The notes under the pieces: model-generated
Told to the model about the DNA's origin: nothing
What the model saw: the letters and a program-made list of their open reading frames with translations, nothing else
Databases searched by the model: none
Source: a virus
DNA: 34,160 nucleotides
IMG/VR virus record: IMGVR_UViG_3300022748_000034
Coordinates: 1-34,160 of that record
Reading direction: 5' to 3' (one strand)
Position numbers and translations under genes: made by a program
Part shown: piece after piece, positions 22,571-29,741 of the stretch
How positions within the stretch are numbered: position 1 is the first letter of the stretch
Layout of the letters: each line of letters starts with the position of its first letter

Positions 22571-22713
22571 AGAAGACACCGAAAGCCAAGCGCGGCCTGT
22601 ACTACAACATCAACAAGCGTCGCAAGGCAGGGCTGCCAGCGAAGCGCCCCGGTCAGAAGGGATACCCGACTGCCGAGGCGTTCAGACGTTCCGCTAAGAC
22701 TGCGAAGCGTTAA
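22567..22713 (+). CDS. Small basic protein (48 aa), GLYYNINKRRKAG type
   Basis: ATGA-coupled. Translation MKKTPKAKRGLYYNINKRRKAGLPAKRPGQKGYPTAEAFRRSAKTAKR. Its stop overlaps the stop of the convergent gene (TTAA at 22710-22713). Confidence 0.5.
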   Translation: MKKTPKAKRGLYYNINKRRKAGLPAKRPGQKGYPTAEAFRRSAKTAKR

Positions 22714-23456
22714 GGCGCGGGAATCGGCCCACCTTCAAACAGGTAGGAACCGAAGTGACCCAGGCGTACCCAGGGTGCGCCGTGAATCTTGAAGCCAGCT
22801 TTGCGAGCAATCTTGCAGAACGCATAGTCCTCGCTCAGCAGACGCTTCTCCTCCGGGTCAATGAACACCGGGAAGAACTCATGTATCTCATCCCTGGCAA
22901 GTTTGCCGTCAGCGGTTGAGACATCGTTCGTGTAGGTCGGCACAGTGTCCTTGAGTGTCTCAATGACTTTGCGCTTGATGAGCATGAAGCCCGTACCCCC
23001 GGCTGCAATTTCACACGGCTTATCCACAGGCACAGTGACCATGCCCTTGTTGTCCCCAATCAGGTTGACCACCATAGCGCCCGTGTAGTTCGTGAGCTGG
23101 TCAAACGGCACGTTGCCCTGCGTGGCTGCTGCATGGACGTTGTACCAGTTAATTTCCTTCTTTGGGTACAGACCGCAGATGATGTCCTGGTCAGCCTCCA
23201 GCATCGAGAAGATGTCGTGAGGATTGAACCGGATGTCAGCATCAATGAACATCAGGTGCGTGGCATCCTCGCGCTTGAGGAACTGGTGAGCCAGCAGGTT
23301 GCGTCCGCGCTGGATAAGCGACTCATTGAACAGGAACGAGAAGCTGACGTTCATGCCCTTGTCCCGAGCCAGTGTCGGCAACTGTACGCAGGACTGCGTA
23401 AAGAAGCCGGTGCATTGCCCGCCATACATCGGCGTAGCGATAAAGATGTGTGTCAT
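22710..23456 (-). CDS. Glycosyltransferase (GT-A fold, GT2-like)
   Basis: 248 aa. Has IATPMYGG at the N-terminus, a DxD motif in LMFIDADIRF and GGTGFMLIKR. No TM segment. Last gene of the early block. Confidence 0.55.
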   Translation of the reverse strand: MTHIFIATPMYGGQCTGFFTQSCVQLPTLARDKGMNVSFSFLFNESLIQRGRNLLAHQFLKREDATHLMFIDADIRFNPHDIFSMLEADQDIICGLYPKKEINWYNVHAAATQGNVPFDQLTNYTGAMVVNLIGDNKGMVTVPVDKPCEIAAGGTGFMLIKRKVIETLKDTVPTYTNDVSTADGKLARDEIHEFFPVFIDPEEKRLLSEDYAFCKIARKAGFKIHGAPWVRLGHFGSYLFEGGPIPAP

Positions 23457-23800
23457 TCGATAGTCTCTATGGTTACGAGGATTCGGCCACCGGAGACTTG
23501 CTGACCTCTGAGGATGTGTAGGTCATCCACCTGGAAGTCATCGTTAAAGACTCCCGCTTCCTGCAAGCTGTCCAGCACGCACTTGATGCGGTTGTCTAGG
23601 TCAATCTTGCGCTTGTCCCTCGGCTGAAGAATCATGGTTATCTTCAATTTGGCATCCCCGAATTTGGGTATGTTGTTCTCGCTGACGTACTCAGCCACGG
23701 CTAACTTGTACTCACGCCCCTTCTGAGACAGCACAGTGTGCCCTCGGAAGTTGCGCCAGTAGGTGTTGACGGATGGCGGGTACGGCAGCGTGAGCAGCAT
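23453..23800 (-). CDS. rusA: RusA-family Holliday junction resolvase
   Basis: Has LTLPYPPSVNTYW ... LSQKGREYK ... IDLDNRIKCVLDSLQEAGVFNDDFQVDDL. ATG 23800 overlaps the stop of the upstream peptide gene (TGATG). The track start 23848 is a GTG inside that gene. Confidence 0.8.
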   Translation of the reverse strand: MLLTLPYPPSVNTYWRNFRGHTVLSQKGREYKLAVAEYVSENNIPKFGDAKLKITMILQPRDKRKIDLDNRIKCVLDSLQEAGVFNDDFQVDDLHILRGQQVSGGRILVTIETIE

Positions 23801-23949
23801 CAGAAGCAGTTGGTGGTGCAGTTGCTTCCGTAGCAGCGGGTGGTACACATAACGGTTCTACCGTTCACAAAGTAGGTGTGCGTGGTGCAGTTTGCCCAAA
23901 CGAGAGAGGCAACGGTTGCAAGCCAAATACCGATAAGAGCTTTCTTCAT
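23800..23949 (-). CDS. Secreted Cys/Thr-rich mini-protein (49 aa precursor)
   Basis: AGGAGA SD lies 6 nt before ATG 23949. Translation MKKALIGIWLATVASLVWA|NCTTHTYFVNGRTVMCTTRCYGSNCTTNCF has a Sec-type signal peptide with a VWA cleavage motif. The 30-aa mature part has 5 Cys. Not in the ORF track (<60 aa). Confidence 0.55.
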   Translation of the reverse strand: MKKALIGIWLATVASLVWANCTTHTYFVNGRTVMCTTRCYGSNCTTNCF

Positions 23950-23958
23950 GTCAATCTC

Positions 23959-24276
23959 CTAGAAAGGAATGTCCTCGTCGTTGTTGCGACGGCGAGGGCC
24001 GGTGGTGTTTGTACGAGCCGTGACCTCCCTGGGCGCATTCTCCTCAATCTTCTTCATCTTGAGGAAGTCATCTTCCTTGAGGCTCAGCAGTGTGGTGTTC
24101 CTGCTGGTTGTCTTGGCCCAGGCTGCTAGCTTGAGCTTCTCTCCGGCTGCGTAGTCATGCTTCAGAATGATGAAGCCCTTGTAGTCGGGAGCTTTGTCAG
24201 ACCGCCGCTGAGACTCATCCTCCCAATACATGACGCCGGTTCCAGGCCTCTCTCGGTGAGGGTTACCGTTAGACAT
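23959..24276 (-). CDS. Small SSB-like protein with acidic DEDIPF C-terminal tip
   Basis: 105 aa from ATG 24276; the track start 24399 runs through the HTH gene in another frame. The C-terminus ...RRRNNDEDIPF copies the bacterial SSB tail (E. coli DDDIPF). It lies between the recombinase and rusA. Confidence 0.5.
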   Translation of the reverse strand: MSNGNPHRERPGTGVMYWEDESQRRSDKAPDYKGFIILKHDYAAGEKLKLAAWAKTTSRNTTLLSLKEDDFLKMKKIEENAPREVTARTNTTGPRRRNNDEDIPF

Positions 24277-24445
24277 GTCGTTCCTTTCTGTAGTGATAGC
24301 GGGCAAACTCTTTGCCGTGTTGACTAACCATTTCTGTATGGATGGGATGTCCCTGCCTACGCAGATACTCGATATGTGCCGCAAGGCGAAAGGAGCCATA
24401 GCGTTCTAGTGCCTCCTTTGGCGTCAGCGGCCCAACGTCCTGCAA
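24269..24445 (-). CDS. Small winged-helix/HTH DNA-binding protein (58 aa, non-ATG start)
   Basis: Frame translation (L/M)QDVGPLTPKEALERYGSFRLAAHIEYLRRQGHPIHTEMVSQHGKEFARYHYRKERHV. The pattern xTxxEAxxxxGxxRLAARIxxLRxxGxxI is a common phage HTH. TTG at 24445 lies after GAGG. Its stop overlaps the ssb-like ATG. The exact start is uncertain. Confidence 0.45.
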   Translation of the reverse strand: MQDVGPLTPKEALERYGSFRLAAHIEYLRRQGHPIHTEMVSQHGKEFARYHYRKERHV

Positions 24446-24450
24446 GTGCC

Positions 24451-25299
24451 TCAGAATGTTTCCTCGCTGGCTTCCGAGCCTGCTGCTGACAGGGACTGTG
24501 GCGGCTTTGGGTTTGTGGTCACTCCTACCTTGACCAGCTCGGCTCGAATGCGAATCTTCTGCTCAGCAGTAAAGCCCTCTGTGACCGCTTTATTTGCCTC
24601 TGCAAGCCCCTTCATCTTGTCTTCCTTCTCTTGAGGCGTGAGCTTGGCAGAAGCGGCTATACGCCCCGCCAGAGCAGCGTAGGCGGCTGTCCAATCTTCT
24701 ACGCTTGTGTGTCGGCTAAACGGCTCGGCCGTTCCGGGGACGTATATTGGAAATGCACCGTCCTCGATTTCTTGGTCAACGATTTCCACAGCGCCCATGT
24801 CTTTGGGTGCAGACTCTTTCTGCTCTGGCGCAAAATCTTGGACTTCTTCAGGTGTATATACGCCCACAACGCATCCGGGGTATACAGCCCTAATGCCCTC
24901 CGAAATGCACCGCGCACGGAGCATTGCTCGCGGGTAATTCTTCCAGTTGTCTTTCGACGCAATGCCAATCTGCTTGGCCTTTGCGAGTGTCCAAGAGACG
25001 CTAAGTGAGCCGCCTGACGGATGAGAAAATACCCCCTCAACTCGCTCATCTGTGTACTCCTTCCATTCGACTTTGCCACCGGCCTGCTGGAAGCGAGCGA
25101 GCATGGCATCTGACTTGAGGGCAGGACGCCCATTGATAACGTGATAGTCACGCATGGCTATGCCTGGATGCAGACCTTCTGCTTGGCACAGCACCATGAT
25201 TGCGAGGGCTTCCTCAACATTCTTGAAGTTGAACATGCGGCTCTTGGCTGCTACCTCAGCCATCTGCGACATGTCTTGGTAGGGAATCAATTGACTCAT
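24451..25299 (-). CDS. recT: RecT-family single-strand annealing protein
   Basis: 282 aa from ATG 25299 (AGTGAGGTTCAC box directly upstream). Has EEALAIMVLCQAEGLHPGIAMRDYHVINGRPALKSDAM ... NWKNYPRAMLRARCISEGIRAVYP and is paired with a YqaJ-type exonuclease. Confidence 0.65.
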   Translation of the reverse strand: MSQLIPYQDMSQMAEVAAKSRMFNFKNVEEALAIMVLCQAEGLHPGIAMRDYHVINGRPALKSDAMLARFQQAGGKVEWKEYTDERVEGVFSHPSGGSLSVSWTLAKAKQIGIASKDNWKNYPRAMLRARCISEGIRAVYPGCVVGVYTPEEVQDFAPEQKESAPKDMGAVEIVDQEIEDGAFPIYVPGTAEPFSRHTSVEDWTAAYAALAGRIAASAKLTPQEKEDKMKGLAEANKAVTEGFTAEQKIRIRAELVKVGVTTNPKPPQSLSAAGSEASEETF

Positions 25300-25306
25300 G
25301 TGAACC

Positions 25307-25393
25307 TCACTTAAAGTAGTCAACAAGGGTGATTAGAAAGTCCAGGCTGGACGTAATAGCCATCACCCAAACGGCTATATCGGTTGAAGTCAT
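25307..25393 (-). CDS. Hydrophobic micro-protein (28 aa)
   Basis: ATGA-coupled to the upstream gene. Translation MTSTDIAVWVMAITSSLDFLITLVDYFK. Its stop lies in the recT SD box. Confidence 0.35.
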   Translation of the reverse strand: MTSTDIAVWVMAITSSLDFLITLVDYFK

Positions 25394-25629
25394 TTCTTCT
25401 GAGCCTTGAATATGGCGTACTCAGCAGTTGTTTTTGCGCCGACTTCAATGGTAATTTTCATCACTGGATTGCTGTCAATCCATATAGGGATTGAGTAGCT
25501 GTCCGGCACAGGCACTTCTGCGTTGTTGTAAGCCGACACTGTTCTTGCAATGATGTCAGATGCCGCCTCGTACAGCTTGTGCATCGGATGCTCTTTTGAG
25601 ACATTGCCCTTCACTTTTACGGATTTCAT
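25390..25629 (-). CDS. Hypothetical protein (79 aa)
   Basis: ATG preceded by AGTGAGG. No recognisable motif. Confidence 0.6.
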   Translation of the reverse strand: MKSVKVKGNVSKEHPMHKLYEAASDIIARTVSAYNNAEVPVPDSYSIPIWIDSNPVMKITIEVGAKTTAEYAIFKAQKK

Positions 25630-25636
25630 GCTGGCC

Positions 25637-26527
25637 TCACTTGACTAGGAAGCGCCGTGAACCGGCCTTCTCAACAACGAACTGGTCATACATGGCGGGG
25701 TTGGCTGCCTGAAAGAGCTTGGCATCGAAGGCTTTGCTTGCCTTGGCTGACTTCCAGGTGCAGAGGATTTCCCCGTCCACAGTGGTCAGCGTGTCAGCAT
25801 CCCCGAGGTAGCCTTGTAGGGCTGCCTGGAACGCTGCCTCACGTTCCTCTAGGGCTTTGATTTCAGCCTTGATGAGCTTGAGTGTCTTGGCTGCTTGCTC
25901 AACAGTGCCGGTGGCTGTCTTCACAGAGTCCTTGCTGACAGGGAACATCAGCTTGGCCTGCTCAACGTCTTCCGGTGCGTAGGGTGTCTGAGCCTGGATG
26001 CGCCCCCAATGCTCAGCCATGCGCTGAATCAGCTCGTCCTTCTGCTCGTCATGGATGTCGAAAGGGAACAAGACAAACTCCTGACCGCCGAATAGGACAG
26101 CCAGATAAATCTTGTCCACACCGAACACGGCCGCCTCATGTATGAGTTGCGCCATGTCAGCTGGAGGAATGACGCTGCCATCGAACTTGCCGCGTACAGC
26201 TGCTGAATAGTTCTTAGCTTCCACAAGGACGGTCTTGCCGTTCTCTTTGCCAGCAAAGTCAAAGTGCGACTTGAACCAGGGATGCTTAGGATGGACAAGG
26301 GACTCCTCCACTTTGGTTAGCTCAATCTTGAGCCTGTCCTGGGCTAGTCTACCGATGACAGGTTCCATGACATGTCCCATCTGAACAGCCTCTACGTCAG
26401 ACAAGTCAGGGATAGGTAATTTCCCTAGCTTGGTCAGGATGACCTCGTTGGCTTTCCCATTGGCTGCCTTGCGGGAGTCACCAGACCACCAAGCTGAGTT
26501 ACGGGTTTCGGGGCTGAAGTCACTCAT
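25637..26527 (-). CDS. YqaJ/lambda-Exo-like PD-(D/E)xK exonuclease
   Basis: 296 aa. Has GHVMEPVIGRL, then HFDFAGKENGKTVLVEAKN (D...ExK) and QLIHEAAVFG. Sits upstream of recT. Confidence 0.7.
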   Translation of the reverse strand: MSDFSPETRNSAWWSGDSRKAANGKANEVILTKLGKLPIPDLSDVEAVQMGHVMEPVIGRLAQDRLKIELTKVEESLVHPKHPWFKSHFDFAGKENGKTVLVEAKNYSAAVRGKFDGSVIPPADMAQLIHEAAVFGVDKIYLAVLFGGQEFVLFPFDIHDEQKDELIQRMAEHWGRIQAQTPYAPEDVEQAKLMFPVSKDSVKTATGTVEQAAKTLKLIKAEIKALEEREAAFQAALQGYLGDADTLTTVDGEILCTWKSAKASKAFDAKLFQAANPAMYDQFVVEKAGSRRFLVK

Positions 26528-26786
26528 AAGCTACTCCCAAGCCGTTGGGCAGGATGACGATGTTTTCGGGGTTGGTGTTCTGGATGGTGTCCGGGGATTC
26601 CCAGAGCCGACCGGATTGGCCACAGCCAGTGCTACGGGCGTTAAAACAGGAAAGGTAGGGGTAGGCTATGTATTGCCCGTCAATCGGGCTTCTAGAGCCT
26701 TCTAGAGCCTTGCAAAGGCCCTTCTGAGCATCGTTAGGGAAGTCAGGGTTCGGCGTGTAGTGCCGGCAATCTATGCAGAGTTTCAT
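26520..26786 (-). CDS. Cys-rich small protein (possible zinc ribbon)
   Basis: 88 aa with CIDC ... C ... C ... C spacing. AGTGAGGTTCAC box directly upstream of the ATG. Confidence 0.55.
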   Translation of the reverse strand: MKLCIDCRHYTPNPDFPNDAQKGLCKALEGSRSPIDGQYIAYPYLSCFNARSTGCGQSGRLWESPDTIQNTNPENIVILPNGLGVAYE

Positions 26787-26834
26787 GTGAACCTCACTAT
26801 GGTTAGGGGATTAGAAGATTAGCAAAGGATAGGA

Positions 26835-27092
26835 TTAGGTGTCAAGTGGTTTGTTGCTCCTTGCTCTGATGGCGGAGGCGCAGTCTCTTGGCCCACTTGC
26901 TGAGTCAGGCTCGTCATCCCATCGCCACGTGTCGTGCTTGTCGTCACACACCTTCGCACACGCCTCACGCTCACGCTCGGCAACAAGTGCGGCGAAGCGG
27001 CGCAGGAAAACAATGTCCTTCTCTGGCGTTTCGGATAGCTCGGGAAAGGCTCCGGCCTCACGCGCCATGCGGATGATGTCATCTCTAGTCAT
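26835..27092 (-). CDS. Hypothetical early protein (85 aa)
   Basis: MTRDDIIRMAREAGAF... is an N-terminus common in small proteobacterial phage proteins. Confidence 0.6.
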   Translation of the reverse strand: MTRDDIIRMAREAGAFPELSETPEKDIVFLRRFAALVAEREREACAKVCDDKHDTWRWDDEPDSASGPRDCASAIRARSNKPLDT

Positions 27093-27119
27093 AGGTCACC
27101 GGTCAGCTCTAGGGCTAGG

Positions 27120-27320
27120 TCAATGAGGTAGCGAGGCACTGGCTGACTCTCCCTCACTTTGTCGAGCAGCTTGTTGGCTTCGTATGTGCTGTAGCTTGAC
27201 AAGCTCCAGGCAGCGTTGGGCCTCCCTGTAATGGTGCAGATACTCGATTTGGGGGTTGTCCTTGTACCTAGCTCGTAGTTCATCGACGCGACCTTTCAGA
27301 ATCTTGATTGCCTCGTTCAT
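27120..27320 (-). CDS. Hypothetical early protein (66 aa; C-terminus uncertain)
   Basis: ATGA-coupled to the alpha-CTD-like gene. The N-terminal 45 aa look helical and the last ~20 aa are low complexity. The +1-frame ORF 27089-27283 may supply the true C-terminus. Confidence 0.5.
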   Translation of the reverse strand: MNEAIKILKGRVDELRARYKDNPQIEYLHHYREAQRCLELVKLQHIRSQQAARQSEGESASASLPH

Positions 27321-27703
27321 AGGTTCTCCGTAGGGTGTTCACCGGGGAGGTATTTGCCGTGGGCTGCTAGCGTCTCTGCAAGCTCATTGACAGACTTCTT
27401 GCCCATATTGGGTATCTTCATCAATGCTCGGCGATTCATTTTGAGCAGCTTGTCCAGGCTGTCTACGCCCTCATCCCTCAGACAATGCAGCGTGCGTACA
27501 GTCAGATTGCGACTGAAGTCTTGCCATGCAGCAGCGGATTCCTTGTCGCCCTCTAGCTTGGCAACCTCCTCCTCGTCGTAGTAACCGAGCGCCCTAGCAA
27601 TGCACTGCGCTCTATTGACCAGCTCGTGCGTCTTGACATCCTGCCGGTGAGCAGCAAGAACACAGAACACTTGAAAGACCTTCTCTCTATCTAGTTTCAT
27701 CAT
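27317..27703 (-). CDS. Free-standing RNA polymerase alpha-subunit C-terminal-domain (alpha-CTD)-like protein
   Basis: 128 aa from ATG 27703 (GAGGG SD 5 nt upstream). NLTVRTLHCLRDEGVDSLDKLLKMNRRALMKIPNMGKKSVNELAETLAAHGKYL aligns to the RpoA CTD helix-hairpin-helix region. Confidence 0.6.
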   Translation of the reverse strand: MMKLDREKVFQVFCVLAAHRQDVKTHELVNRAQCIARALGYYDEEEVAKLEGDKESAAAWQDFSRNLTVRTLHCLRDEGVDSLDKLLKMNRRALMKIPNMGKKSVNELAETLAAHGKYLPGEHPTENL

Positions 27704-27736
27704 CGTCACCCTCTAAAAAAACCAATGCGTACCACA

Positions 27737-27755
27737 CTAGTCCATAGAGGACTAG
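27737..27755. promoter_or_regulatory. Perfect inverted repeat CTAGTCC-N5-GGACTAG in the leader of the alpha-CTD-like gene
   Basis: 7-bp arms read directly. The 9-mer CTAGTCCAT recurs at 29779-29787 upstream of the main early promoter. Confidence 0.4.
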
Positions 27756-27814
27756 CACCAGACTGAGGACTAACCAGTCAGTAAACATAAGCGACATGCT
27801 TGATGGTGAGCAAA

Positions 27815-27842
27815 GCCTAGCCCTCCCAAGCAAGGGCTAGGC
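27815..27842 (-). terminator. Intrinsic-terminator-like hairpin
   Basis: GCCTAGCCCT-N8-AGGGCTAGGC, a perfect 10-bp stem. On the minus strand it is followed by only TTTG, a short U-tract. Confidence 0.5.
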
Positions 27843-28104
27843 CTTCCACATGCTCGACGGAGCCGCACATGCCCGACAGCCGTTCGCTCAGAGCCGCTAT
27901 CTTCGCCAGCTCTCCCGGTGTCTCAGAGCTTTCCCACAGTACCGGGTTTCCCGCATCCCTGCCGTATGGGTCACCGACAGATGCGCGGTTGGCGTGGGCA
28001 ACAAAAAAGCCGTTAAGTTCTAGCCCCGGTGAGAAAACATCCTTGCGGGATGCCGCCCCAATGGGGCCAGGACTAGACTTAACGGCTCTCTGCTGGTTTC
28101 TCAC
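27817..28104 (-). CDS. Leaderless-type 95-aa ORF or non-coding structured transcript (unresolved)
   Basis: GTG start with no SD, ~6 nt from the predicted +1 of promoter 28118-28145. The stop codon lies inside the terminator stem. The 5' third carries a 14-bp long-range helix. Confidence 0.3.
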   Translation of the reverse strand: MRNQQRAVKSSPGPIGAASRKDVFSPGLELNGFFVAHANRASVGDPYGRDAGNPVLWESSETPGELAKIAALSERLSGMCGSVEHVEGLALAWEG

Positions 28105-28117
28105 GCCAACGCTCGCA

Positions 28118-28145
28118 AGTATATCGGGATGTTTGTGGCCGTCAA
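28118..28145 (-). promoter_or_regulatory. Sigma70-type promoter (minus strand)
   Basis: TTGACG (28145-28140), 16 nt, TATACT (28123-28118). Same -10 and spacing as the promoter at 29714-29741. Confidence 0.5.
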
Positions 28146-28225
28146 TACCCTAGCCAAAGCAGGGTGAACAACCCTACCAGGGCAGCTAGGCAAACAGCCA
28201 GTACAGCACGGTCACCGATGCTCAT
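28142..28225 (-). CDS. Hydrophobic micro-protein (27 aa, single TM)
   Basis: ATGA-coupled. Translation MSIGDRAVLAVCLAALVGLFTLLWLGY. Confidence 0.45.
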   Translation of the reverse strand: MSIGDRAVLAVCLAALVGLFTLLWLGY

Positions 28226-28383
28226 GGCTGCACCCTCTCTGCTAAGGGTTTCCAGCCATGCCGTCGCCATGTTTCCTGCACGTTGGTTTGTGCGGCGGGC
28301 GTGTACTTGAAGGACGGGTCGAGCAGTGACGGACGCACTGGTGGCTTCTGAGTGCGGGGTTGTTTCTTCAATTCGGGTTTCAT
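28222..28383 (-). CDS. Small basic early protein (53 aa)
   Basis: AGGAGAG SD. Translation MKPELKKQPRTQKPPVRPSLLDPSFKYTPAAQTNVQETWRRHGWKPLAERVQP. ATGA-coupled at both ends. Confidence 0.55.
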   Translation of the reverse strand: MKPELKKQPRTQKPPVRPSLLDPSFKYTPAAQTNVQETWRRHGWKPLAERVQP

Positions 28384-28544
28384 GCTTGCTCTCCTGTGGC
28401 CTTTGCGATTGCTTCGCGTGCGGCTTTCTTGGTCTTGCCGAAAGCGCGGCCAGCGAACACACCATCTACGCGGCGCACTGCAAACCATCCGCGCTGGCCG
28501 TTATATGTGACGGACTCGTATGTGTATGTAATCTTCATGTTCAT
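28380..28544 (-). CDS. Small early protein (54 aa)
   Basis: ATGA-coupled at both ends. Translation MNMKITYTYESVTYNGQRGWFAVRRVDGVFAGRAFGKTKKAAREAIAKATGEQA. Not in the track (<60 aa). Confidence 0.5.
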   Translation of the reverse strand: MNMKITYTYESVTYNGQRGWFAVRRVDGVFAGRAFGKTKKAAREAIAKATGEQA

Positions 28545-28828
28545 TCCCCAAGGGCTTTTGCGATAGCTGCGCGTGCGGCGGTCAAACTGTCAAGCTGTTG
28601 AGCCAGCTTCTTGTCCATGCGCTGACACATGACATACAGCAGGTCATCGGCGCATTGTTGCAGCGCCGCGAGTAAATCAGGCGCGGCGGCGATTAGCGCG
28701 GCATCAGCGGGATTGACACTTTGAACATCACCAACGACACCGCCACCGGCGCGAATAAACCAGTATGCGGGTTTGTTGTTTATCGTATCTTGTACTGTTG
28801 CAATCCAAGGGCCAGAAGTGTGGTTCAT
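28541..28828 (-). CDS. Hypothetical early protein (95 aa)
   Basis: ATG 28828 overlaps the upstream stop (ATGA). Has MNHTSGPW ... NPADAALIAAAPDLLAAL, a motif common in small phage proteins. Confidence 0.6.
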   Translation of the reverse strand: MNHTSGPWIATVQDTINNKPAYWFIRAGGGVVGDVQSVNPADAALIAAAPDLLAALQQCADDLLYVMCQRMDKKLAQQLDSLTAARAAIAKALGE

Positions 28829-29094
28829 GCTGCCTCCGCGTTGTGAAGCATGTGTTCTGCAATCTCGCGCCAATTGACGTCACTCAGGAAAGCAATCGCA
28901 TAGTCGCGTGCAACACCCTCAGAGCTAGTCATGAAGATTAAATCCTCAGCGTAAGCGCAGAGAGTTGAGGCCAGCTCATGCGGCTCATCGTAACCGTCGC
29001 CAGCAATATCGCTGGCTGTCAACCCGTCGAATATCTCTAGGTTGACGCGCCATGTGGCGTAGTTAGTCCAGCCGTTGTAGGTAGTGTCAGACAT
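28825..29094 (-). CDS. Highly acidic early protein (89 aa)
   Basis: Has YNGWTNYATWRVNLEIF. By my count there are 16 D/E against 3 R and no K. Confidence 0.6.
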   Translation of the reverse strand: MSDTTYNGWTNYATWRVNLEIFDGLTASDIAGDGYDEPHELASTLCAYAEDLIFMTSSEGVARDYAIAFLSDVNWREIAEHMLHNAEAA

Positions 29095-29167
29095 GGGAAC
29101 ATCCCTTCATGGTTAGCTGCAACATTGCAGCGCATAGGGCACTGTCACTGCCCTACACGCTGGATTG

Positions 29168-29383
29168 TCAGGCTGTAGCGAAAGAATCAAGCCATGCTTG
29201 CATCCGAGCAGCTCGACGAGCATGAAGGTCTATCTTGTGTTTTTCGTCCCGGATATGGCGCAACAGTGTTGCTTCGATGGTTTCGTCATCTTCCATCAAT
29301 AGGTCGGCACTGGCCCCGTCGCTATCTTCGATGATGAGATAGGTTGCAAAGCCTAGATGATGTGTGCGAATGGTAACTTGCAT
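29168..29383 (-). CDS. Hypothetical early protein (71 aa)
   Basis: ATG 29383 lies 1 nt after the AGTGAGGTTCAC box. The track start 29395 is a GTG inside that box. Confidence 0.6.
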   Translation of the reverse strand: MQVTIRTHHLGFATYLIIEDSDGASADLLMEDDETIEATLLRHIRDEKHKIDLHARRAARMQAWLDSFATA

Positions 29384-29455
29384 GGTGAACCTCACTCAGT
29401 AGATGATGCGACAGTGCATCTCATGGCGCACCAGGATGCGCCACAAGATGAATTG

Positions 29456-29665
29456 TCAAAGCATGATTGACGCCGGCGTGTTGCACGGCACAAGCCAACC
29501 GTCATAGTAACGCTGAGCACTTGCTTGGTCAGAGTAAATGCGCGTTGTCACTGTCTCGCCAGAATCAGCGTCAATTAGTCGAAAGATGAAGCGGTTACGC
29601 AGCTCGTCATGGTCGAGACGGACAATCATGTTGTCAATGAGCTGGTGGAGGTGGAGGTTTTGCAT
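29456..29665 (-). CDS. First early-left protein (69 aa)
   Basis: First ORF downstream of the promoter at 29714-29741. ATG at 29665; the track start 29674 is a GTG. Confidence 0.55.
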   Translation of the reverse strand: MQNLHLHQLIDNMIVRLDHDELRNRFIFRLIDADSGETVTTRIYSDQASAQRYYDGWLVPCNTPASIML

Positions 29666-29713
29666 GGTAGGCACTGCCTTTCGTGGTTGCGTCGTTCAAT
29701 CAACGACAGCACT

Positions 29714-29741
29714 AGTATAGACTAGTTAGAATGCTTGTCAA
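29714..29741 (-). promoter_or_regulatory. Main early leftward sigma70-type promoter
   Basis: Consensus TTGACA (29741-29736), 16 nt, TATACT (29719-29714). It sits ~40 nt upstream of the first early ORF. Confidence 0.6.

What the first reader, a model, noticed from the sequence alone, without database searches (positions are those of the whole stretch)
27815..28145. Self-contained promoter / structured region / terminator cassette inside the early operon (leaderless moron-like gene or ~300-nt RNA)
On the minus strand TTGACG-16 nt-TATACT (28145-28118) has the same -10 and spacing as the main early promoter. Its -35 overlaps the stop codon of the upstream mini-ORF. About 290 nt downstream lies a perfect 10-bp GC-rich hairpin (27815-27842) followed by UUUG. 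The only ORF in between (27817-28104) starts with GTG ~6 nt from the predicted +1 and has no Shine-Dalgarno. Every neighbouring gene has an SD or is ATGA-coupled. The ORF's stop codon lies inside the hairpin. The 5' third of the transcript can form a long-range helix (28009-28023 with 28073-28086, 14 bp with one bulge). That helix encloses two hairpins: CAUCC/GGAUG with a 5-nt loop, and GCCCC-AUU-GGGGC. So this is either a leaderless, independently transcribed accessory gene or a structured non-coding RNA. Third-position composition is compatible with coding, so I cannot decide from sequence alone.
Basis: partly seen in the sequence, partly recalled or inferred. Interest (0 to 1): 0.62.

Follow-up and report, generated by a model that had tools for sequence, protein, structure and literature searches.

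The report
Two-part structured phage RNA gene
The flagged stretch is not a protein gene but a promoter-driven, heavily knotted non-coding RNA made of two conserved modules (a terminator-bearing leader and a long form of the catalogued but function-less "Betaproteobacteria-1" RNA) that many uncultivated phages carry.

Summary
The described features are all in the sequence, but two were misread and two were missed.

**Not a gene.** The 95-aa GTG ORF is spurious. It has no Pfam or PHROG hit. Only 8 of 68 homologous regions keep an open frame, and all 67 homologues have frame-breaking indels.

**Module 1, leader (28112-28000, minus strand).** This is an uncatalogued leader RNA. A 5' hairpin loop forms an 8-bp pseudoknot with the strand just before the 3' arm of a 20-bp helix. 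The design occurs in more than 120 IMG/VR contigs, right after sigma-70 promoters. It precedes several different structured RNAs.

**Module 2 (27988 to about 27794).** This is a full-length Rfam RF02932 match (87 bits) plus an uncatalogued 3' extension. A phage-specific 7-10-nt word occurs twice, after GGCUCC-R and after YCACC-A. None of my tests explained it.

**Best reading.** The leader terminator meters transcription, and read-through yields a folded RNA of unknown function. This scan had already met the family on at least 8 other genomes.

The parts
28118..28145 (-). Sigma-70-type promoter: -35 TTGACG (28145-28140), 16-nt spacer, -10 TATACT (28123-28118). The predicted start is near 28113-28110.
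   Evidence: 10 of 12 matches. In homologues, 80 of 155 leaders have a match of at least 9/12 in the 70 nt just upstream, against 2 of 121 control windows.
28000..28112 (-). Module 1, leader RNA (about 110 nt). It is a variant of a widespread uncatalogued phage leader.
   Evidence: Covariance model R1 was built from 67 canonical leaders without the window. It matches 28119-28002 full-length at 35.3 bits, E about 1e-6; the next best hit in the genome scores 12 bits. Rfam has no hit for it.
28092..28110 (-). P1 hairpin: GUUGG (28110-28106) pairs with CCAGC (28096-28092). The loop CGUGAGAAA contains the ORF's GTG.
   Evidence: Read from the sequence. P1 is 98.9% paired in 67 homologues, with 3 of 4 pairs changing on both sides.
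28029..28036 (-). 3' strand of the pseudoknot, UUUCUCAC. It pairs with the P1 loop GUGAGAAA (28104-28097).
   Evidence: All 8 pairs of this helix change on both sides in alignment A1; one column has AU 21, CG 16, UA 16, GC 12. The alignment is MAFFT-made, not fitted to the structure.
28009..28086 (-). P2 long helix (28086-28067 with 28029-28009). It encloses P3 (28067-28055) and P4 (28054-28036).
   Evidence: fold. P2 is 99.3% paired in homologues, with 10 of 17 pairs changing on both sides.
28003..28008 (-). U6 tract directly after P2. Together they have the form of an intrinsic terminator.
   Evidence: A run of 5-9 U follows the helix in every leader examined; note that TTTTT was part of the search pattern. 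Fifty-three of 68 distinct RF02932 loci, found with a different pattern, also have it.
27871..27987 (-). Module 2 core: Betaproteobacteria-1 RNA (RF02932). Helices: H1 27988-27950, H2 27946-27914, H3 27901-27875. Pseudoknot PK-A is 27913-27909 with 27894-27890. Pseudoknot PK-B is 27929-27926 with 27889-27886.
   Evidence: 87.3 bits, model positions 1-120 of 120; standard pairs make up 90-97.5% of cells in the H1 outer stem, H2, H3, PK-A and PK-B, with 3-6 pair types per column. Controls with the partner slid give 14-69%.
27847..27871 (-). H4 hairpin (27871-27865 with 27853-27847). Its loop shows site 1: GGCUCC (27864-27859), G, then word copy 1, UCGAGCAUGU (27857-27848).
   Evidence: H4 pairing is specific to each RNA's own sequences (own -4.1 vs other -3.3 kcal/mol; 3 of 2000 permutations).
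27815..27842 (-). It is preceded by the conserved purine linker GGAAGG (27847-27842).
   Evidence: A hairpin with the conserved 3' strand GGGCURGGY is present at this place in homologues. Column counts are poor (62%) because its length varies.
27794..27814 (-). 3' tail with site 2: UUUGC, then UCACC (27809-27805), A, then word copy 2, UCAAGCAUGU (27803-27794).
   Evidence: Longest common substring of the two words: 6.45 within an RNA vs 3.61 between RNAs, 0 of 5000 permutations.
27817..28104 (-). Spurious 95-aa GTG ORF.
   Evidence: No Pfam or PHROG hit. The matching ORFs in homologues end at scattered positions. Only 8 of 68 homologous regions keep a frame open over at least 90 codons, and 67 of 67 have indels that are not multiples of three.

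Best explanation
The region from 28145 to about 27794 (minus strand) is a promoter-driven non-coding RNA locus built from two separable modules.

Module 1 is a leader of about 110 nt. It folds into a three-way junction clamped by a pseudoknot. Its closing 20-bp helix is followed by U6, so it acts as an intrinsic terminator. I infer that this terminator stops or meters RNA polymerase arriving from the cassette's own promoter and from the upstream early promoter. The result would be an abundant short leader RNA and a smaller read-through fraction.

Module 2 is made only by read-through, because the 12-nt gap (27999-27988) after the U tract leaves no room for another promoter. It is a long form of the Betaproteobacteria-1 RNA. 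Three hairpins are locked by two pseudoknots. Two further hairpins and a single-stranded tail then present the motif C-N-C-C-purine plus a phage-specific word twice.

I take module 2 to be a stand-alone folded RNA that works as RNA, most likely in trans. Its molecular target is not known.

Shown here: the sequence elements, the folds (by covariation), family membership, and absence of coding. Inferred: that the promoter fires, that termination is partial, and that the RNA acts in trans.
For: - Rfam RF02932 matches full-length at 87.3 bits.
- The core helices and both pseudoknots covary.
- The leader fold and its pseudoknot covary in 67 independent leaders: 93.8% of cells paired vs 77.4% in shuffles, and 25 of 33 pairs change on both sides.
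- The window's leader is the only significant hit of the leader model in the genome.
- Sigma-70 promoters are enriched just upstream of leaders, 80 of 155 vs 2 of 121.
- The modules are separable. Burkholderiales copies have a promoter and 5' hairpin directly before the core, without the junction and U tract. The leader precedes other RNA classes, a tRNA (L273) or a protein gene (L286).
- The region is not coding.
- RF02932 was found in only 1 of 151 sampled genomes of the class of a carrier bacterium. That fits phage cargo rather than a host housekeeping RNA.
- A published result shows that stable structures next to an intrinsic terminator lower its efficiency (bioRxiv 10.64898/2026.06.17.733018). 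This makes a tunable terminator plausible.
Against: - Promoter use, termination efficiency and RNA ends are therefore all untested.
- The window's leader is a variant that lacks the CAUG/CAG internal loop of canonical leaders (alignment).
- No terminator follows module 2. In most relatives the genes after it lie on the same strand. A purely cis-acting 5'-UTR role is therefore not excluded.
- The nested fold of module 2 alone is not exceptional (z = -1.6). Its support rests on covariation.
- The U tract could instead be a protein-binding or processing site.
Confidence: 0.72

Rival explanations
1. The whole 320 nt is a cis-acting 5' leader of the delayed-early operon (alpha-CTD protein, RecE, RecT, RusA). 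It would be an RNA-based antitermination or attenuation device, in the manner of HK022 put or a riboswitch. It would decide whether polymerase enters the operon and would have no trans function.
For: - It is co-oriented with the downstream genes and lies directly upstream of them.
- No terminator follows module 2.
- RecE-like and small genes are conserved downstream on the same strand in 16-18 related loci.
- A terminator is embedded in the leader.
- The 80 nt after the RNA are G-rich and C-poor in relatives (GC skew +0.40), which would disfavour Rho loading.
Against: - The immediate downstream gene differs between loci.
- Burkholderiales copies have their own promoter and different neighbours.
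- Earlier notes of this scan report family members read from the strand opposite to their neighbours (I did not check this).
- No ligand or factor is known.
- The window itself lacks the G-rich tract (+0.14).
Confidence: 0.2
2. The locus is a transcription-primed replication origin. The RNA would be a ColE1 RNA II-like primer or R-loop former. Word copy 1, shown in the H4 loop, would pair with the template DNA strand at word copy 2 and anchor the nascent RNA to the DNA.
For: - It would explain why the two words must be identical rather than complementary.
- No complementary copy exists in the genome.
- The ORFs tested in the early region gave RecE, RecT, RusA and alpha-CTD, but no initiator, primase, helicase or polymerase.
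- G-rich, low-GC sequence follows the RNA in 72% of relatives.
- ColE1 needs an rG stretch in the RNA pairing with a dC stretch in the template (PMC4412123). That the rG stretch lies far upstream in RNA II is from my own memory of Masukata and Tomizawa 1990.
Against: - The two sites keep conserved differences (GGCUCC-G vs YCACC-A), which would be mismatches in such a hybrid.
- The window lacks the G-rich tract.
- GC skew shows no inflection at the locus.
- Not all ORFs were annotated.
- The leader terminator upstream would work against priming.
- There is no experimental hint.
Confidence: 0.07
3. The locus is a leaderless or near-leaderless 95-aa accessory (moron) protein gene.
For: An open frame of 95 codons with a GTG about 6-9 nt from the predicted start. 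Eight of 68 homologous regions also have a long open frame.
Against: - No family hit.
- 60 of 68 homologues lack the frame, and 67 of 67 have frame-breaking indels.
- Conservation follows base pairs, not codons.
- The GTG lies in a covarying pseudoknot.
Confidence: 0.01

Closest known systems
Betaproteobacteria-1 RNA motif (Rfam RF02932; from the 224-motif survey, PMC5737381)
   Same: Window 27987-27871 matches all 120 model positions at 87.3 bits. The three hairpins are the same.
   Different: The catalogue entry covers only the first roughly 120 nt and carries no pseudoknots in the model as printed. Here the RNA continues for about 80 nt (H4, H5, tail) and has two covarying pseudoknots and a twice-written word. 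Most carriers found are phage contigs. The paper's main text does not discuss the motif, and no function was found in the library.
Lambda PR'-6S RNA-tR' unit and other promoter-proximal terminator leaders
   Same: A strong promoter, then a short transcript ending at an intrinsic terminator, then downstream genes that need read-through.
   Different: Here the terminator hairpin is a three-way junction tied to the 5' hairpin by a covarying pseudoknot. No Q-like protein or qut site was identified. The comparison with lambda rests on my general knowledge and was not tested.
'Tug-of-war' antitermination (Bushhouse, Fu and Lucks, bioRxiv 10.64898/2026.06.17.733018)
   Same: A stable RNA structure stands beside an intrinsic terminator, which according to that paper lowers termination.
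   Different: In that design the structure sits immediately upstream of the terminator hairpin with a very short spacer. Here P1 lies 5 nt (AGAGA, 28091-28087) upstream in the window and roughly 9-14 nt upstream in canonical leaders. It reaches into the terminator's junction through a pseudoknot. The effect could go either way, and no ligand is known.
c4 / CI antisense RNA immunity of coliphages P1, P7 and P4 (Rfam C4, RF01695)
   Same: A phage-specific short word is written more than once as direct repeats in one early transcript.
   Different: Those systems hold a complementary copy in the RNA. None is found here. There is no RF01695 match.
ColE1 RNA II primer
   Same: A highly structured, promoter-driven RNA in a replicon that appears to lack its own initiator. 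An upstream RNA segment has the same sense as a downstream one.
   Different: There is no evidence of a hybrid or an origin here, and no sequence similarity. See the rival explanation.

Membership tests
Rfam RF02932 Betaproteobacteria-1 RNA | Score above the curated gathering cut-off over the full model. | tested here: met
   87.3 bits vs 49.4, model positions 1-120 of 120, E = 5e-15.
Rfam RF02932 Betaproteobacteria-1 RNA | The three consensus hairpins are kept by compensatory changes. | tested here: met
   Standard pairs: H1 outer stem 93%, H2 90%, H3 97.5%, with 3-6 pair types per column in 68 distinct sequences. The sequences were selected with a pattern in the H2 loop and the H2-H3 linker, not in the stems.
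Phage terminator-clamp leader (uncatalogued; defined here) | A 5' hairpin whose loop pairs with the strand before the 3' arm of a long helix, followed by a U tract. | tested here: met
   Model R1 scores 35.3 bits, E about 1e-6, full-length. The 8-bp complementarity is 28104-28097 with 28036-28029, and the U6 tract is 28008-28003.
Phage terminator-clamp leader (uncatalogued; defined here) | Conserved internal loop in P2 (UUAC-N-CAUG ... CAG-NN-GUAA). | tested here: not met
   The window has UUAAGUCUAG ... CUAGAACUUAA instead (alignment). It shares this subtype with L007 and L022. The loop was part of the search pattern, so its invariance in that set is by construction.
Intrinsic (Rho-independent) terminator | A G+C-rich stem directly followed by a run of U. 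| tested here: met
   This applies to P2 plus U6 (28086-28003). The stem base is GCCG/CGGC, followed by UUUUUU. Function was not testable. The scan tool did not list it because its loop limit is 3-8 nt.
   It is followed by CUUUGCUC, which has only 3 U. It is not listed, and it is conserved as an internal helix with conserved sequence after it.
Leaderless protein-coding gene | The reading frame is conserved in relatives. | tested here: not met
   8 of 68 frames are open, and 67 of 67 have indels that are not multiples of three. Searches give no family.
tRNA-like / tmRNA-like RNA | Recognised by tRNA or tmRNA models, with an invariant 3' CCA after an acceptor stem. | tested here: not met
   ARAGORN finds none. 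Rfam finds no tRNA or tmRNA even at E up to 10. The invariant part is CACC; the next base is G, C or U in some members. Pairing of the strand before CACC is not specific.
c4/CI-type antisense immunity RNA | A copy complementary to the repeated word. | tested here: not met
HK022 put-type processive antiterminator RNA | Two stem-loops that act in cis on RNA polymerase without protein. | not testable with these tools
   No model of put was on hand, and the defining property is functional.

The most novel reading that the evidence does not exclude
Betaproteobacteria-1-type RNAs would be origin transcripts of phages that lack an initiator. The phage-specific word in the H4 loop would pair with the template DNA strand at the identical second word about 55 nt downstream. 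This would lock the nascent RNA onto the DNA as a persistent hybrid that primes or opens the origin, a ColE1 RNA II-like mechanism. The upstream clamp-terminator leader would set how often that happens.
Probability: 0.07. Interest if true: 0.85.

Novelty: new variant of a known kind. Interest (0 to 1): 0.55.

Why it matters
An RNA catalogued in 2017 as a 120-nt orphan 'sRNA' of Betaproteobacteria turns out, here and in about 150 related contigs, to be larger. It is the core of a phage RNA of about 200 nt with two pseudoknots and a twice-written specificity word.

It usually sits behind a second, uncatalogued RNA module: a terminator whose hairpin is clamped to the transcript's 5' end by a pseudoknot. 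That leader alone occurs in more than 120 viral contigs and precedes several unrelated structured RNAs. It therefore looks like a general phage device for dosing non-coding RNA or early-operon transcription.

Folds this elaborate are usually ribozymes, ligand sensors or RNP scaffolds. Finding what this one does would add a new piece to phage early-gene control. For annotation, the practical lesson is that the 95-aa ORF, and similar ORFs in relatives, should not be called as genes.

Tried and rejected
1. **Protein gene.** Rejected.
2. **BLAST against cultured phages.** Neither the window RNA nor a Burkholderia copy gave a match.
3. **Literature.** No paper on the function of Betaproteobacteria-1 or RF02932 was found.
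4. **Complementary partner for the repeated word.**
   - None in the window at up to 3 mismatches in 18-19 nt.
   - Hits to the 10-mer are at chance level.
   - No consistent partner in about 75 loci.
5. **Two-state switch.** I tested whether the strand before CACC pairs with either word copy. This pairing is not specific to each RNA's own sequences (1599-1908 of 2000 permutations do as well). Only H4 is supported.
6. **Anti-Shine-Dalgarno-like targeting of an mRNA** (complement of the word, then GGAG or GGUG). Hits in the window are at chance (7 vs 5.4 expected, two of them the locus itself). In a carrier Burkholderia genome the two non-self hits look intragenic in the flanking sequence and are no more frequent than the control.
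7. **tRNA/tmRNA likeness.** Not supported.
8. **Hammerhead or other catalogued ribozymes and riboswitches.** No Rfam hit at E up to 10.
9. **GC-skew evidence for an origin.** None.
10. **A conserved partner protein next to the RNA.** None beyond a clade-specific RecE module. The alpha-CTD gene is not a conserved neighbour.

Full report
**Observation.** Everything below is on the minus strand.
- The promoter-like site TTGACG-16-TATACT lies at 28145-28118. It shares its -10 and spacer with the early promoter at 29741-29714.
- Its -35 overlaps the TGA of the upstream mini-ORF.
- The 95-aa GTG ORF runs from 28104 to 27817.
- The 10-bp hairpin is at 27842-27815.
- The long-range helix enclosing two small hairpins folds as described (-57.3 kcal/mol, z = -5.1).

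The count of promoter-like sites in the region is at chance (6 vs 5.1 expected). The promoter call therefore rests on the comparative data below.

- The long helix is followed at once by UUUUUU (28008-28003).
- The GTG lies in a hairpin loop that is complementary to a strand inside the long helix.
- The centre of the 'ORF' is a catalogued RNA.

**Not coding.**
- The 95-aa product has no Pfam or PHROG family.
- I fetched relatives with a pattern from the RNA core: 39 IMG/VR contigs, 116 metagenome contigs and 16 genome contigs, 7 of them true.
- The ORFs that run through the region in relatives end at scattered places.
- Only 8 of 68 distinct homologous regions keep any sense frame open over at least 90 of 96 codons.
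- All 67 homologues differ from the window by indels that are not multiples of three.
- Conservation follows base pairs instead.

**Module 2, the Betaproteobacteria-1 RNA in a long form.**
- Rfam RF02932 matches 27987-27871 over all 120 model positions at 87.3 bits, against a cut-off of 49.4.
- I anchored an alignment of 68 distinct sequences. In it the H1 outer stem, H2 and H3 have 90-97.5% standard pairs with 3-6 pair types per column.
- Two pseudoknots covary equally well. PK-A is 27913-27909 with 27894-27890. PK-B joins the H2 loop and the H3 loop, 27929-27926 with 27889-27886. Controls with the partner slid give 14-69%.
- Conservation continues about 80 nt beyond the Rfam model. It covers hairpin H4 (27871-27847), a purine linker (GGAAGG), hairpin H5 (27842-27815) and a tail, UUUGC-UCACC-A.
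It is followed by only three U, is not listed by the terminator scan, and is followed by conserved sequence. It is therefore an internal helix.
- The nested fold of module 2 alone is unremarkable (z = -1.6). The evidence for the structure is the covariation.

**Module 1, a clamp-terminator leader.**
- *Fold.* Between the promoter and module 2 lie P1 (28110-28092), a 20-bp helix P2 (28086-28067 with 28029-28009) enclosing P3 and P4, and U6. The P1 loop GUGAGAAA (28104-28097) pairs with UUUCUCAC (28036-28029), the strand just before the 3' arm of P2.
- *Distribution.* Most RF02932 relatives have the same design (53 of 68).
- *Covariation.* In a MAFFT alignment of 67 such leaders without the window, 93.8% of cells pair, against 77.4% in shuffles. 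Twenty-five of 33 pairs change on both sides. All eight pseudoknot pairs covary; one column has AU 21, CG 16, UA 16, GC 12. The positions fixed by the search pattern (UUAC-N-CAUG, CAG-NN-GUAA, UUUUU) are invariant by construction and carry no weight.
- *Membership.* A covariance model from that alignment finds exactly one significant place in the 34-kb genome. It is 28119-28002, full-length, 35.3 bits, E about 1e-6; the next best scores 12 bits. The window, with L007 and L022, is a subtype that lacks the canonical internal loop.
- *Promoters.* Sigma-70 matches of at least 9/12 occur in the 70 nt upstream of 80 of 155 leaders, against 2 of 121 control windows.
- *Catalogue status.* Rfam has no family for the leader.

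**The two modules are separable.**
- Copies in Burkholderiales and Rhodocyclales genomes have a TATACA-type -10, a simple 5' hairpin and then the core, with no junction or U tract.
- The leader in turn precedes other things. These are at least three other classes of long structured RNA, a tRNA in one case (L273), and a protein gene directly in another (L286).
- One of the other classes ('A', ACACGAGCAAGCC...) shares the GGCUCC / YCACC two-site 3' end.
- RF02932 was found in only 1 of 151 sampled genomes of the class of a carrier bacterium. It therefore behaves as sporadic mobile cargo.

**The twice-written word.**
- Site 1 lies in the H4 loop: X-GGCUCC-R-word. Site 2 lies in the tail: X-YCACC-A-word. 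Both carry the same 7-10-nt word. In the window the two copies are UCGAGCAUGU and UCAAGCAUGU.
- The word differs widely between phages, for example UCCAGCA, AAAGGCA, UAGUGCA, AGGGGCA and CGGGGAU.
- The longest common substring within an RNA averages 6.45, against 3.61 between RNAs (0 of 5000 permutations). The 3-5 nt before the sites also match (1 of 5000).
- Class A RNAs show the same feature. One of them (L230) changes CUCC and CACC to CUCU and CACU together.
- I tested four explanations, and none held:
  - There is no complementary copy in the window or in the loci.
  - Alternative pairing of the strand before CACC with either word copy is not specific.
  - There is no Shine-Dalgarno-type mRNA target in the phage or in a carrier Burkholderia genome beyond chance.
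  - The RNA is not tRNA-like.
- The word remains unexplained.

**Surroundings.**
- *Upstream:* small early ORFs. One is a 54-aa product with a sub-threshold dsRNA-binding-motif hit.
- *Downstream:* a CTAG palindrome (27755-27737), then T7 (27721-27715), then a free-standing RNA polymerase alpha-CTD protein (PF03118, E = 8e-15). After that come RecE-like, RecT-like and RusA genes.
- The ORFs tested showed no initiator, primase, helicase or polymerase.
- In relatives, the 80 nt after the RNA are G-rich, C-poor and low in GC (skew +0.40 vs about +0.1 elsewhere). The window shows only +0.14.

**Mechanism I commit to.**
- The promoter makes a transcript whose first 110 nt fold into the clamped junction. 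P2 plus U6 terminates part of the polymerases, including those arriving from the early promoter at 29741.
- The rest read on through module 2, which has no room for a promoter of its own.
- The pseudoknot sets the termination efficiency. A recent preprint shows that structures beside a terminator lower termination. The direction of the effect here is not known.
- Module 2 then acts as a folded RNA. Its separate occurrence with its own promoter in bacterial prophage-like loci favours a stand-alone, probably trans-acting role over a pure 5'-UTR role.
- My odds: about 0.95 that this is structured non-coding RNA, about 0.5 that the leader meters transcription by partial termination, and about 0.4 that module 2 acts in trans.

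**Rivals.** They are a purely cis-acting operon leader (0.2), an origin or primer RNA (0.07) and a protein gene (0.01).

**Standing.** The core is a known Rfam family of unknown function. The 3' extension, the pseudoknots, the word pair and the leader were not found described in the library searched. Earlier agents of this scan had already reported the family on at least eight other genomes, and a similar clamp-terminator leader on others. My tests agree with those notes. No read data could be consulted.

Noticed in passing
window 28380-28544 (-): A 54-aa early ORF ends in ...GRAFGKTKKAAREAIAKA and gives a sub-threshold match to the dsRNA-binding motif (PF00035, E = 0.008, 17 bits vs cut-off 23). 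A mini dsRNA-binding protein just upstream of a structured RNA gene would be worth a fold prediction.
   Followed up: partly
window 27715-27755 (-): There is a perfect palindrome, CTAGTCC-TCTAT-GGACTAG (27755-27737), then 15 nt, then T7 (27721-27715), directly before the ribosome-binding site of the alpha-CTD gene. Relatives have the same layout after their RNA: a CTAG-containing palindrome, a T8-9 run, then AGG..ATG (listing). It may be an operator or promoter element for the delayed-early genes.
   Followed up: partly
window 22710-29700 (-): The early-region ORFs that I scanned gave RecE-like, RecT-like, RusA and alpha-CTD hits, but no replication initiator, primase, helicase or DNA polymerase. 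Small ORFs and the plus-strand genes were not all scanned.
   Followed up: partly
loci L173-L289 (IMG/VR), 0-400 nt after the leader: The same leader precedes at least three other long, apparently structured RNA classes that Rfam does not hold in the loci tested. They are class A (…ACACGAGCAAGCC…GGUGGGCGAA…), class B (…CCGUACUCC…GGGGUAGGGGGGUCUUUGGG…) and class C (…CYCAGRGCGSGUUAGC…CCACCCUUGGGG…). Class A shares the two-site, twice-written-word 3' end with RF02932.
   Followed up: partly
L273:5678-5855: In one contig the leader is followed, after a truncated class C start and a second T run, by a tRNA-model match (RF00005, 33.6 bits).
   Followed up: no
loci L003, L009, L010, L018, L032 and others, 0-80 nt after the RNA: The stretch after the second word is strongly G-rich and C-poor, and often carries short tandem repeats. 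Examples are GGGGCAG / GGGGTA at a period of about 11 nt in L003, and GTACAGTACAGGG twice in L032. These could be iteron-like sites or R-loop-prone sequence. The window lacks it.
   Followed up: partly
window 27996-28000 with 27870-27874 (-): UGCCC just after the U tract can pair with GGGCA just after H3, closing the whole RF02932 core. Relatives have UGCCC with GGGUA or GCCCG with CGGGC. The MFE suggests this helix, but I did not test it for covariation.
   Followed up: no
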